Origin: Naegleria gruberi | Taxonomy: Eukaryota | Reading direction: 5' to 3' (one strand) | DNA: 1,403 bases | NCBI GenBank assembly: GCA_000004985.1 | Contig: GG739431.1 | In this document: positions 1 to 1,403 of the stretch, in pieces | How the letters are laid out: each line of letters opens with the position of its first letter | How positions within the stretch are numbered: position 1 is the first letter of the stretch | Made by a program: the position numbers and the translations under genes | Notes under the pieces: generated by a model | Database searches by the model: none | What the model saw: the letters and a program-made list of their open reading frames with translations, nothing else | Told to the model about the DNA's origin: nothing

Positions 1-669
1 TTCAATCGATCAGATGTATTCGCAGAAGAAATTTCACAAGTGATTCTTTCTGGAGGTGGAACACTCAATCCTTCAATAAGGAGTGCAATTATTGATCGAT
101 ATTTCAAAGATGGAAATGTTTCGAATATTTTACAAGCATCAACCATAGGTGCAGCTCTTCAAGCAGCTGTAGTATATGAACCATTCCAAACTGTTTCTTT
201 AATACTGGCACCATTTTCTCTTGGGATTGAGAATTCTGACAGCCAGTTAGTGAAAATCATTGAAAGAGGAACAGTTCTGCCAACTGTCAAGAAGATGGTC
301 TTTTCTAGTGAAAGAGGATTTCTTGATTCTGTTGATTTTTGTATATTTGCTGGTGATAACATTTATGAAATGGAAAAGAATATTCAATTAGGTCAATTGA
401 CCTTGGAAGGAATTGAGTTGACTGAAAAGGGGAAATCTCAAATTGAAGTTTCTTTTGAATTGAGTGATAGTTTCATTCTCAATGTTACTGCCACTGATTT
501 AACAACCAAAGAAAAGAGTGAAAAGTTAATTTCTTTGGAAAAGTTAGAAAGTAATAGGGAACTCACAAACAAACTTGAACAGGATGCTTCCAAAGATGGA
601 GAAGAGAAGGAAATTAGAAAATTACTCCATACTTATAATTCACCAAGTGTTCTCCATGAAGAATTGTAA
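1..669 (+). CDS. Hsp70-family molecular chaperone, C-terminal portion. 5' partial, open at the window edge. Covers the end of the nucleotide-binding domain, the linker, the substrate-binding beta domain and a truncated lid, with C-terminal HEEL.
   Basis: Frame 1 has no stop from nt 1 to the TAA at 667-669. The translation ...EEISQVILSGGGTLNPSIRSAI...ASTIGAALQAAVV matches the Hsp70 connect motif IVLVGGSTRIPKVQ and DEAVAYGAAVQAA. SLILAPFSLGIE matches the interdomain linker DLLLLDVTPLSLGIE. LVKIIERGTVLPTVKKMVFSS matches LIKRNTTIPTKKSQVFST. NIQLGQLTLEGIELTEKGKSQIEVSFELSDSFILNVTATDLTTKEKSEKLIS matches [51 protein letters not shown]. The protein ends ...SPSVLHEEL immediately before TAA. The ORF-track start at 40 is a GTG and the frame continues upstream to nt 1. 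Confidence 0.88.
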   Translation, partial: FNRSDVFAEEISQVILSGGGTLNPSIRSAIIDRYFKDGNVSNILQASTIGAALQAAVVYEPFQTVSLILAPFSLGIENSDSQLVKIIERGTVLPTVKKMVFSSERGFLDSVDFCIFAGDNIYEMEKNIQLGQLTLEGIELTEKGKSQIEVSFELSDSFILNVTATDLTTKEKSEKLISLEKLESNRELTNKLEQDASKDGEEKEIRKLLHTYNSPSVLHEEL

Positions 670-699
670 ATAGCCAATTCAATTACAATAATAGATAAG

Positions 700-705
700 T
701 TTATT
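700..705 (-). promoter_or_regulatory. Candidate polyadenylation signal AATAAA for the minus-strand gene
   Basis: The + strand tttatt at 700-705 is AATAAA on the minus strand, about 70 nt downstream of the TAA at 776..774. AT-rich sequence produces such hexamers by chance, so this is weak. Confidence 0.25.
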
Positions 706-773
706 ACACTTTAGTATGGACAATATACAAAAATATTTCAAAAACTGTTTCGTTTAAGAAAGAATTTGACCAC

Positions 774-1217
774 TTAAGGAATTCTAACACAAACAGTTTG
801 TCCACTCTTTCCACCTCCATTCAACAACTTTCTAGCTTGATATTCAACTTCTTGAAAAACTCTTCTCTTGCGTTCTTCCAAAATCTTGGCTCTTCTCTTT
901 GCTTTCTCAGCACATCTTTCAGCTGCCTTTCTTTGGGCTTCTTGAGCTCTACTCTTTGCTTTGGATTCAGCTTGATCTTTCTTATTGGCAGCCTCAGCGA
1001 GCTCTCTAGATTTCTTGGCATTCGACTGCTTCTTTCATTCTCTTTATAGCTTCTTGAGCATCTCTTTGGAGTTTTCTGGCTAATTCCTCAGCTTGTCTCT
1101 TTCTTTCTTCTGCTAATTGTATGGCTAGTTTCTTCAAGACCTCTTTGAGCAGCTTCTTTGGCTTTCTTGGCAGGCTTTGAGGACCTTCTTTCTATCTTTC
1201 ATAACCTTCTTGATCAT
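774..1217 (-). CDS. Gene for a highly charged Ala/Lys/Glu/Arg-rich helical (coiled-coil-like) protein of unknown family, with its reading frame interrupted by frameshifts. Possible pseudogene, indel errors or recoding. The 3' 87 codons (1034..774) are intact.
   Basis: Minus-strand ATG at 1217..1215 sits in an aaaATGa context, with an in-frame TAA 27 nt upstream. The start frame reads MIKKVMKDRKKVLKA..., then degrades (CQESQRSCSKRS) and stops at TGA 1136..1134. The +1 frame reads ...PAKKAKEAAQRGLEE... The +2 frame reads ...KEVLKKLAIQLAEERKRQAEELARKLQRDAQEAIKRMKEAVE... and stops at TAG 1008..1006. The original frame is open again from 1034 and reads AKKSRELAEAANKKDQAESKAKSRAQEAQRKAAERCAEKAKRRAKILEERKRRVFQEVEYQARKLLNGGGKSGQTVCVRIP, ending at TAA 776..774. 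That last segment has no in-frame ATG, so it needs the upstream start. Codon pattern is GCN/AAG/GAA/AGA with purine at codon position 1. Net frame is conserved. I do not recognise the product family. Confidence 0.55.
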
Positions 1218-1357
1218 TTTCTTTCCAATCCTTGACAACAGTTATTCTTAAACAATAGATCCAAGTTGTTGCTTCCAAACAAGATATGCTCAACTTGACT
1301 CCATTAGATTTAATGGGATCAATATTTCCGAAACCAGACTTTACAAATTCCATCAAA
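1218..1357. promoter_or_regulatory. Short divergent intergenic region, presumed to carry promoters and 5' UTRs for both genes
   Basis: 140 bp separates the minus-strand ATG at 1217 from the plus-strand ATG at 1358. No defined motif was recognised. The call rests on position only. Confidence 0.3.
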
Positions 1358-1403
1358 ATGGCGAAAAAGAAGAAAACTAAAATTTTGCAATTAAAAATTA
1401 AAA
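1358..1403 (+). CDS. Possible 5' end of a + strand gene, 3' partial, with N-terminus MAKKKKTKILQLKIK...
   Basis: ATG at 1358 in a strong aaaATGg context, open to the window end (15 codons only). It lies 140 bp from the divergently oriented ATG at 1217. It is too short to assign a product. Confidence 0.2.
   Translation, partial: MAKKKKTKILQLKIK

What the first reader, a model, noticed from the sequence alone, without database searches (positions are those of the whole stretch)
774..1217. The charged-protein gene is split across all three reading frames, yet the net frame is restored
I re-translated the minus strand by hand. Coding-quality sequence follows the ATG at 1217 in frame 0 (MIKKVMKDRKKVLKA). 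It continues in frame +1 (PAKKAKEAAQRGLEE), then in frame +2 (KEVLKKLAIQLAEERKRQAEELARKLQRDAQEAIKRMKEAVE). It then returns to frame 0 for the final 87 codons, to the TAA at 776..774. Each frame runs into stops soon after the next frame becomes protein-like: TGA at 1136..1134, TGA at 1090..1088, TAG at 1008..1006. Two models fit the sequence. One is three successive +1 shifts near 1163-1175, 1122-1140 and 1011-1026. The other is one -1 shift between 1134 and 1191 plus one +1 shift near 1011-1026. In both models the total is a multiple of 3, so the start and the stop are in the same frame. That is unexpected for random decay. It is more consistent with compensated mutations, with context-specific indel errors in the assembly, or with a recoding mechanism. 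The last segment has no Met of its own, which supports one original ORF of about 147 codons.
Basis: seen in the sequence. Interest (0 to 1): 0.55.

Follow-up and report, generated by a model that had tools for sequence, protein, structure and literature searches.

The report
Indel-broken orphan gene in Naegleria mini-contig
A small lysine/glutamate-rich gene on a 1.4-kb Naegleria gruberi contig really is written in three shifted reading frames, but this looks like ordinary single-base insertions and deletions (gene decay or sequencing error), and the claim that the frame is restored depends on which start codon is chosen.

Summary
The window is a whole 1,403-bp Naegleria gruberi contig. It is a second copy of a locus that also lies on a 223-kb contig.

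A codon model trained only on the neighbouring Hsp70 ORF shows real coding signal in shifted frames: 1175-1126 in frame 1, 1125-1021 in frame 2, 1019-777 in frame 0. Off-frame windows never score like this (simulated P about 0.0002).

The reading "net frame restored" is not supported. At 1217-1176 frame 2 beats frame 0. Frame 2 is open and coding-like back to an ATG at 1353. From that ATG to the TAA is 580 nt (3n+1), with shifts of -1, +1 and +1. Agreement between a chosen ATG and the stop is a 1-in-3 event in any case.

I found no slippery sites, no stimulatory RNA structure, and no shift at a stop codon. GT..AG "mini-introns" rescue 51% of simulated broken genes, so they carry no weight. No homologues exist.

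Verdict: an ordinary indel-broken orphan ORF. It is either a decayed duplicate copy or Sanger base-calling error, and these tools cannot tell which. Low interest.

The parts
1351..1353 (-). Most likely start codon (ATG) of the charged-protein gene. It is preceded by T-rich DNA of 27% GC (1354-1403).
   Evidence: It is the first ATG of the frame-2 ORF. The ORF 1353-1195 is open for 53 codons (P=0.005 for a given frame in shuffles). The codon score of 1353-1218 is +14.1 bits, against -10.6 and -27.7 for the other frames. GC profile.
1198..1353 (-). Block 0: N-terminal coding block in frame 2 (relative to ATG 1217), not low-complexity: MEFVKSGFGNIDPIKSNGVKLSISCLEATTWIYCLRITVVKDWKENDQEGYE.
   Evidence: With a six-frame background it scores +7.9 and the next best frame +1.8.
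1215..1217 (-). It is probably an out-of-frame ATG inside codons AAT GAT of block 0.
   Evidence: Frame 0 over 1217-1176 scores -0.1 bits and frame 2 scores +7.0. In-frame 13-codon windows score <=0 only 0-3% of the time. The whole-path score is 71.2 from 1217 and 90.4 from 1353.
1192..1194 (-). TAG in frame 2. Either it is an in-frame nonsense lesion, or it is bypassed because the first shift lies just upstream at 1200-1195.
   Evidence: Frame-2 codons on both sides of it score well (GGT TAT GAA AGA | TAG | AAA GAA GGT CCT CAA).
1172..1200 (-). Shift A zone: frame 2 to frame 1. This is a -1 shift, meaning one base is missing from the deposited sequence. The exact site is not resolved; Viterbi puts it at about 1198, and the repeat register argues for 1174-1159.
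   Evidence: The three copies of AAGAAG-NTN-NTN-AAAG at 1211, 1190 and 1158 are spaced 21 and 32 nt apart. All three read K/Q-E-x-x-E/Q-R/S if one base is missing between copies 2 and 3.
1127..1175 (-). Block 1: coding in frame 1, PAKKAKEAAQRGLEET.
   Evidence: +15.4 bits with the Hsp70-only model, against -14.4 for frame 0 and -3.0 for frame 2. Simulated off-frame P=0.0002. GCN falls in frame 1 four times.
1126..1131 (-). Shift B: frame 1 to frame 2. This is a +1 shift, meaning one extra base. It is compatible with an extra A in GAAGAAACTAGCC.
   Evidence: Viterbi change point at about 1127 under every start and cost setting with shift cost 4 or 8 bits. Sequence context.
1021..1125 (-). Block 2: coding in frame 2, AIQLAEERKRQAEELARKLQRDAQEAIKRMKEAVE.
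   Evidence: +29.3 bits, against -21.8 and -13.6. GCN falls in frame 2 seven times and CAA five times.
1019..1029 (-). Shift C: frame 2 to frame 0. This is a +1 shift, meaning one extra base, within GCAGTCGAATGCC. It is the most robust lesion and is required in every model.
   Evidence: Viterbi change point at about 1021 in all settings. The last frame-2 GCN is at 1029 and the first frame-0 GCC is at 1019.
774..1019 (-). Block 3: C-terminal coding block in frame 0, AKKSRELAEAANKK...GGGKSGQTVCVRIP, with stop TAA at 776-774.
   Evidence: +51.0 bits for 1001-777, against -23.5 and -69.8. No Met..
1..669 (+). Convergent neighbour: the 3' part of a very divergent Hsp70-family gene. It is open from the contig edge and is annotated only from Met at nt 295 as NAEGRDRAFT_77063. 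It was used as the independent training set for codon usage.
   Evidence: Pfam PF00012, E=4.7e-25, profile positions 320-528 of 599. 100% match to P0001. DnaK-like hits in NCBIfam and PDB.

Best explanation
The minus strand carries one orphan gene of about 192 codons. It most likely starts at ATG 1353 and ends at TAA 776-774. It encodes a short ordinary N-terminal segment followed by a long K/E/A/R/Q-rich helical (coiled-coil-like) region.

In the deposited sequence three single-base indels break the ORF within about 180 nt:
- one missing base somewhere in 1200-1172 (frame 2 to 1);
- one extra base near 1127 (frame 1 to 2);
- one extra base near 1021 (frame 2 to 0).
The TAG at 1194 may be an additional in-frame stop.

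Translated as written, the gene would stop after 53 codons, so no single protein is made from this sequence and nothing recodes it. After each lesion the old frame simply runs on until its first chance stop.

I lean, only slightly, to the lesions being genuine. On that view this 1.4-kb contig is a diverged, redundant copy (haplotype or paralogue) of a locus on a 223-kb contig, and its charged-protein gene is a young pseudogene whose codon signal has not yet eroded.

Shown here: the frame blocks, the shift positions, the coding strand, and the absence of recoding signals. Inferred: the start at 1353, the one-base size of each lesion, and that the lesions are genuine rather than base-calling errors.
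For: - Frame blocks and change points.
- Coding strand.
- Start at 1353 rather than 1217: (path score 90.4 against 71.2).
- Shifts come 12-40 nt before the old-frame stops, as expected for random indels.
- Identity of the contig: N. gruberi, 1,403 bp in total.
- Second copy: P0004 on a 223,047-bp contig. It has 5 differences in 124 aa. All are single-nucleotide changes and 4 of 5 are conservative (P=0.06 under random change). That suggests a truly diverged copy rather than a noisy re-read.
- No annotated protein anywhere, including the N. gruberi proteome that holds P0001 and P0004, resembles the repaired protein. The large-contig copy is therefore unannotated or not intact either.
- The lesions lie 200-400 nt inside the contig, not at its edge.
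Against: - No reads, quality values, cDNA or second DNA copy could be obtained, so genuine mutation cannot be separated from base-calling error.
- A tiny orphan contig in a Sanger draft of 1,977 contigs (PMC9928731, Table 1) is exactly where consensus errors collect.
- Three indels with at most one nonsense codon, in codons that are mostly one step from a stop, look more indel-biased than neutral decay usually is. The expectation of about 2 stops is too small to test.
- The start at 1353 rests on modest statistics (P = 0.03 and 0.005). The 53-residue N-terminus has no homologue; the only hit is a spurious repeat protein.
Confidence: 0.45

Rival explanations
1. Base-calling or assembly artefact. 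The real gene is intact (about 192 codons from ATG 1353). The three one-base indels, and perhaps the TAG, are consensus errors in a low-coverage Sanger mini-contig that failed to merge with the main 223-kb contig.
For: - The contig is only 1,403 bp and duplicates a locus on a large contig. The assembly is Sanger with 1,977 contigs (PMC9928731, Table 1).
- The lesions cluster in about 180 nt, while the flanking 53 and 81 codons and the 222-codon Hsp70 ORF are clean.
- The codon signal in every block is undiminished.
- Both +1 lesions can be read as an extra A in an A-run.
Against: - An intact allele on the main contig should probably have been annotated and found, and it was not.
- The amino-acid differences from P0004 look evolutionary rather than random (weak, P=0.06).
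- The lesion zone is not where read tails would fall in a simple two-read layout (inference).
- A-runs are everywhere here (14 runs of at least 3 in 210 nt), so the sequence context does not discriminate.
Confidence: 0.38
2. The gene starts at ATG 1217 and three +1 shifts restore the frame. This would reflect compensated mutations or programmed +1 frameshifting, giving a 146-aa protein.
For: - ATG 1217 and TAA 774 are in the same frame.
- A path with three +1 shifts at about 1179, 1127 and 1021 exists.
- The 10-mer T-GCC-AAG-AAA occurs at two of the three putative shift sites, 1172-1163 and 1020-1011 (repeat D5).
Against: - Frame 0 at 1217-1176 scores -0.1 bits against +7.0 for frame 2. The path from 1217 scores 19 bits less than the path from 1353.
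- The frame agreement has a 1/3 prior and the ATG was selected for it.
- No known +1 motif is present, and the shifts are not at stop or slow codons.
- No RNA structure. No conservation can be shown.
- A long-standing compensated state would have re-equilibrated codon usage in the read frame, but each block keeps its own frame's signal.
Confidence: 0.05
3. Fewer lesions. The gene runs in frame 2 from ATG 1353 to about 1021, with one nonsense or read-through TAG at 1194, and needs only one +1 shift, at about 1021.
For: - Frame 2 has only one stop between 1353 and 1009.
- With a heavy shift penalty (12 bits) and a stop cost of 8 bits this path scores slightly best, 80.1 against 78.4.
Against: It reads 1175-1126 as LPRKPKKLLKEVLKKL at -3.0 bits, while frame 1 scores +15.4. 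In-frame windows score that low with P about 0.009, and off-frame windows score that high with P about 0.0002.
Confidence: 0.06
4. Ultra-short GT..AG introns of 13-16 nt at each junction (1205-1192, 1140-1125, 1026-1014), or one normal intron (for example 1205 to about 1030), restore the frame after splicing.
For: - A GT lies at or near every junction. 80 combinations of at most 3 GT..AG segments of 10-30 nt give an open frame from 1353.
- Single introns of 153-204 nt give an open frame from 1217. The N. gruberi mean intron is 203 nt (PMC8296547, Table 2).
Against: - 51% of simulated broken genes with the same codon content can be rescued the same way, and 26% have at least 80 solutions.
- The candidate donors (GTTATG, GTCTTG, GTCGAA, GTCCTC) share nothing beyond GT.
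- 13-14 nt is shorter than the 15-16 nt introns of Stentor (PMC9505925), which are the smallest I know of.
- The long-intron version would discard DNA with strong codon phase and coding-level GC: 0.40-0.42 against 0.23-0.28 in the spacer.
Confidence: 0.02
5. There is no gene. The region is purine-rich low-complexity DNA in which all frames happen to look protein-like.
For: - The strand is purine-rich (AT skew about -0.5), so stops are rare.
- There are no homologues and no Pfam family.
- No gene model was annotated here.
Against: - Strong three-base periodicity with the codon preferences of the neighbouring real gene: +51, +29 and +15 bits, with the off-frames negative.
- Runs of GCN in a single phase.
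- GC content at coding level.
Confidence: 0.03

Closest known systems
Frameshift-disrupted ORF: a young unitary or duplicated pseudogene, or draft-assembly indel error
   Same: - The coding signal is preserved in blocks that are offset by +/-1.
- Each old frame ends at its first chance stop 12-40 nt after the shift.
- No cis signals are present.
- The sequence sits on a small redundant contig of a draft Sanger assembly.
   Different: No intact parent or orthologue could be found to align against, so the exact lesions are inferred from codon statistics only.
Programmed +1 ribosomal frameshifting (Euplotes AAA-TAA/TAG sites, antizyme UCC-UGA, yeast Ty1 CUU-AGG-C, ABP140/EST3)
   Different: - None of these motifs is present.
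- The phase changes before the old-frame stop, not at it.
- One junction is -1 if the gene starts at 1353.
- No conservation is available.
- To my knowledge Naegleria is not known to use frameshifting.
Tiny spliceosomal introns (Stentor coeruleus, 15-16 nt; PMC9505925)
   Same: GT..AG segments of 13-16 nt at the junctions would restore one frame.
   Different: - Such rescues arise by chance in half of the simulated controls.
- Two of the three are shorter than any Stentor intron.
- N. gruberi introns average 203 nt (PMC8296547).

Membership tests
Programmed +1 ribosomal frameshift site | The shift occurs at a defined slippery or hungry codon, often a stop or a rare codon in the A site, with a known heptamer (AAA-TAR, TCC-TGA, CTT-AGG-C, CTT-AGT-T, CTT-TGA). 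| tested here: not met
   None of these motifs occurs between 1353 and 774. The codon phase switches 12-40 nt upstream of the old-frame stops at 1136, 1090 and 1008.
Programmed +1 ribosomal frameshift site | The frameshift site and both frames are conserved in orthologues. | not testable with these tools
   No homologue of the repaired protein or of its N-terminus exists in 5.8 billion or 1.84 billion protein sets. No related loci were found.
Programmed -1 ribosomal frameshift site | A slippery heptamer X XXY YYZ in the zero frame, followed by a stable stem-loop or pseudoknot. | tested here: not met
   The only heptamer in the gene is CCCAAAG at 937, far from any shift. RNA 1217-990 folds no better than shuffles, z = +0.99. 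No Rfam match.
Spliceosomal intron (Naegleria) | GT..AG borders, a length typical of the organism (mean 203 nt), and no codon phase or coding composition inside. | tested here: not met
   GT..AG rescues exist but at chance frequency. The DNA that would be removed has strong codon phase and a GC content of 0.40-0.42. The short versions are 13-16 nt.
Pseudogene | Disabling lesions (frameshifts or stops) in a sequence that demonstrably was coding. | tested here: met
   Three frame changes, possibly with the TAG at 1194, lie within coding-phase blocks. This holds for the deposited sequence only.
Pseudogene | The lesions are real in the genome (not sequencing error), and an intact parent or orthologue exists. 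| not testable with these tools
   No reads or second DNA copy could be obtained. The 223-kb contig with the sister copy could not be fetched. No intact relative is annotated.
Hsp70 family (neighbouring + strand gene) | A significant match to the Hsp70 profile across the end of the nucleotide-binding domain and the substrate-binding domain. | tested here: met
   PF00012, E=4.7e-25, 88.3 bits against a cut-off of 20.6, profile positions 320-528. DnaK and BiP structures match at E=1e-18 to 1e-22. The scores are far below the DnaK equivalog cut-offs, so it is a divergent member.

The most novel reading that the evidence does not exclude
The three shifts are real in the genome, are shared by both copies of the locus, and are nevertheless decoded into one protein. 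That would mean Naegleria uses motif-independent ribosomal frameshifting, transcript-level indel correction, or 13-16-nt introns. The recurrence of T-GCC-AAG-AAA at 1172-1163 and 1020-1011 and the GT at each junction would then be signals rather than coincidences.
Probability: 0.03. Interest if true: 0.85.

Novelty: already known. Interest (0 to 1): 0.1.

Why it matters
As it stands this matters only for annotation.
- It flags an unannotated orphan gene, or pseudogene, downstream of NAEGRDRAFT_77063.
- It flags a probably redundant mini-contig in the N. gruberi NEG-M draft.
- It shows that "the start and stop share a frame" is weak evidence when the start codon was picked for that property.

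Only if independent genomic reads confirmed the indels, and RNA or peptide data spanned the junctions, would it become a case of recoding in Heterolobosea. That would be a real surprise.

Tried and rejected
1. Homology. The repaired 152-aa and 194-aa proteins gave no hit. An exhaustive phmmer search with the 53-aa N-terminus returned only a spurious repeat protein. Pfam gave only an insignificant Caldesmon match.
2. Related loci. The Hsp70 fragment found nothing in viral or metagenome contigs, and a gapped DNA pattern across shift B found nothing in metagenomes.
3. Fetching the contig, or the sister 223-kb contig, by exact protein look-up. P0001, P0004 and four window ORFs are not on record.
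5. Repeats. Only short low-complexity families turned up, with no tandem array in the gene.
6. Intron models. Many exist, but the control shows they are expected by chance.
7. Recoding signals: none.
8. A coding gene on the + strand (ORF 798-1049) was rejected as an antisense shadow.
9. A test of nonsense versus indel counts, and a test of lesion clustering, were considered. Both lack power: about 2 stops would be expected, and clustering gives P about 0.09 by my own estimate.
10. The Cell 2010 genome paper is not held. The assembly facts come from PMC9928731 and PMC8296547.

Full report
**What the window is.** The + strand ORF 1-669 is a divergent Hsp70 fragment (PF00012, E=4.7e-25). Its last 124 residues are 100% identical to 'predicted protein [Naegleria gruberi]' P0001, whose longest contig is 1,403 bp. 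The window is therefore one whole mini-contig of the N. gruberi NEG-M draft. That draft is a Sanger assembly of 40.9 Mb in 1,977 contigs or scaffolds, N50 160 kb (PMC9928731, Table 1). P0001 (EFC35283.1, NAEGRDRAFT_77063) clusters with P0004 (EFC37506.1, NAEGRDRAFT_74719), which lies on a 223,047-bp contig and differs at 5 of 124 residues. The window is thus a second, slightly diverged copy of a locus that also exists in the main assembly. Naegleria uses the standard genetic code (my own knowledge). Its introns average 203 nt, with 1.7 exons per gene (PMC8296547, Table 2).

**Checking the observation.** On the minus strand, with frames numbered from ATG 1217:
- frame 0 stops at TGA 1136-1134;
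- frame 1 stops at TGA 1090-1088;
- frame 2 stops at TAG 1008-1006;
- frame 0 is open again from 1034 to TAA 776-774, with no Met.

The strand is purine-rich, so stops are scarce in all frames and a chance control was needed. I used two.
- Trinucleotide phase. GC[T/C/A] occurs in frame 1 four times in a row (1171-1150), in frame 2 seven times in a row (1125-1029), and in frame 0 at 14 of 16 sites from 1019 to 836. GAA and CAA follow the same blocks.
- Codon log-odds trained only on the independent Hsp70 ORF. These give +15.4 bits for frame 1 in 1175-1126, +29.3 for frame 2 in 1125-1021, and +51.0 for frame 0 in 1001-777. The other frames are negative. Among about 570 real off-frame 16-codon windows the maximum was +3.0, and simulated off-frame windows reach 15.4 with P=0.0002.

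With a six-frame background the minus-strand frames stay best in every block. The open + strand ORF 798-1049 is only the antisense shadow, at -13 to -25 bits. The split across three frames is therefore a real property of the deposited sequence.

The first segment and the start codon do not hold up.
- Over 1217-1176, frame 0 (MIKKVMKDRKKVLK) scores -0.1 bits. Frame 2 scores +7.0 even with its TAG counted. In-frame 13-codon windows fall to 0 or below only 0-3% of the time, and off-frame windows never reach +7.
- Frame 2 continues upstream as an open ORF to ATG 1353 (MEFVKSGFGNIDPIKSNGVKLSISCLEATTWIYCLRITVVKDWKENDQEGYER). It scores +14.1 bits against -10.6 and -27.7 for the other frames (shuffle P=0.03). 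The chance that a given frame stays open for 53 codons is 0.005.
- Upstream of 1353 the DNA drops to 27% GC.
- A Viterbi segmentation with a shift cost of 8 bits gives -1 near 1198, +1 near 1127 and +1 near 1021 from ATG 1353, scoring 90.4. From ATG 1217 it gives three +1 shifts, scoring 71.2.

ATG 1353 to TAA 774 spans 580 nt, which is 3n+1, so the net frame is not restored.

**What it is.** The best description is one orphan gene of about 192 codons. A short ordinary N-terminus is followed by a long K/E/A/R/Q-rich helical region and a GGGKSGQTVCVRIP tail. In the deposited sequence three one-base indels break it within about 180 nt, and the TAG at 1194 may be an additional in-frame stop. Three 16-mers AAGAAG-NTN-NTN-AAAG at 1211, 1190 and 1158 are spaced 21 and 32 nt apart. 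They all read K/Q-E-x-x-E/Q-R/S if one base is missing between the second and third copy. That fits a -1 lesion in 1174-1159 and an in-frame TAG. The exact site of the first lesion (1200-1172) is not resolved. After each lesion the old frame runs on for 12-40 nt to its first stop, which is what random indels produce.

**Recoding and splicing were tested and not supported.**
- There is no X XXY YYZ heptamer in the shift zone, and none of the known +1 motifs occurs anywhere in the gene.
- RNA 1217-990 folds no better than shuffles (z=+0.99), and Rfam finds nothing.
- A shift at the stop codons themselves (Euplotes-like) is formally possible. It is contradicted by the codon phase, which changes well before each stop.
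- A GT lies near every junction, and 80 combinations of at most three GT..AG segments of 10-30 nt open the frame. But 51% of simulated broken genes with the same codon content can be rescued the same way, and 26% have at least 80 solutions.
- Segments of 13-14 nt would be shorter than the 15-16-nt Stentor introns (PMC9505925).
- A single long intron would discard DNA with strong codon phase and coding-level GC.

**Genuine lesions or sequencing error?** This could not be settled. No reads, cDNA or second DNA copy could be obtained.

For an artefact:
- the contig is a 1.4-kb orphan in a Sanger draft;
- the lesions cluster, while the flanks and the 222-codon Hsp70 ORF are clean;
- the codon signal is undiminished.

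For genuine lesions:
- the five amino-acid differences from P0004 are all single-base changes and 4 of 5 are conservative (P=0.06), so real divergence rather than noise explains why the contig stayed separate;
- no annotated protein in the N. gruberi proteome resembles the repaired product, which is unexpected if the main-contig copy were an intact 192-codon gene;
- the lesions are not near a contig edge.

I put genuine decay of a redundant copy at about 0.45 and artefact at about 0.38. Either way the phenomenon is ordinary.

**Comparison with known things, and verdict.** The sequence behaves like a frameshift-disrupted ORF (young pseudogene or draft-assembly error). It fails the testable defining features of programmed +1 and -1 frameshift sites and of spliceosomal introns. 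Conservation could not be tested because no homologues exist. The most novel reading still open is true indels decoded by frameshifting, editing or ultra-short introns. I give that about 3%. Interest is low (0.1), and the category is already known.

Noticed in passing
window 1-669 (+): The Hsp70-like ORF is open from the contig edge and Hsp70-homologous from residue 4. Yet the annotated model (P0001) and its sister on the 223-kb contig (P0004) both start only at the Met at nt 295 (124 aa). No annotated protein covers the upstream 98 codons. The gene is therefore under-annotated or truncated in both copies.
   Followed up: partly
window 655-669 (+): The divergent Hsp70 ends in ...VLHEEL. This is an HDEL/KDEL-like C-terminus, which from my own knowledge would suggest ER retention. 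The protein stops about 13 residues after profile position 528 of 599, so most of the helical lid is missing. The best non-self relative is only 34% identical (P0002, a DnaK from a JGI metagenome).
   Followed up: partly
window 424-589 (+): All five amino-acid differences between the two N. gruberi copies (E44K, S48A, E73V, L78I, S99T in P0001 numbering) fall within 166 nt. None lies in the 129 nt before that stretch or the 77 nt after it.
   Followed up: partly
window 1163-1172 and 1011-1020 (-): The 10-mer TGCCAAGAAA (T + GCC AAG AAA = A K K) recurs just where a new frame begins at two junctions (repeat family D5). It is probably a chance match in low-complexity sequence, but it is the only shared sequence context among the shift zones.
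   Followed up: partly
window 1358-1403 (+): An ATG at 1358 opens a + strand reading MAKKKKTKILQLKIK that runs off the contig. It lies only 4 nt from the minus-strand ATG at 1353. Its codon score is about +1 bit, so it is probably A-rich non-coding DNA rather than a divergent gene.
   Followed up: partly
window 798-1049 (+): An 83-codon S/L/F-rich ORF lies exactly antisense, in codon register, to the frame-0 block. This is the expected shadow of a K/E/A/R-rich gene (no TTA, CTA or TCA codons on the sense strand) and a trap for ORF-based gene callers.
   Followed up: yes
window 670-773: The convergent Hsp70 and charged-protein genes are separated by only 104 nt of DNA at 23-28% GC, which must hold both 3' UTRs.
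   Followed up: no
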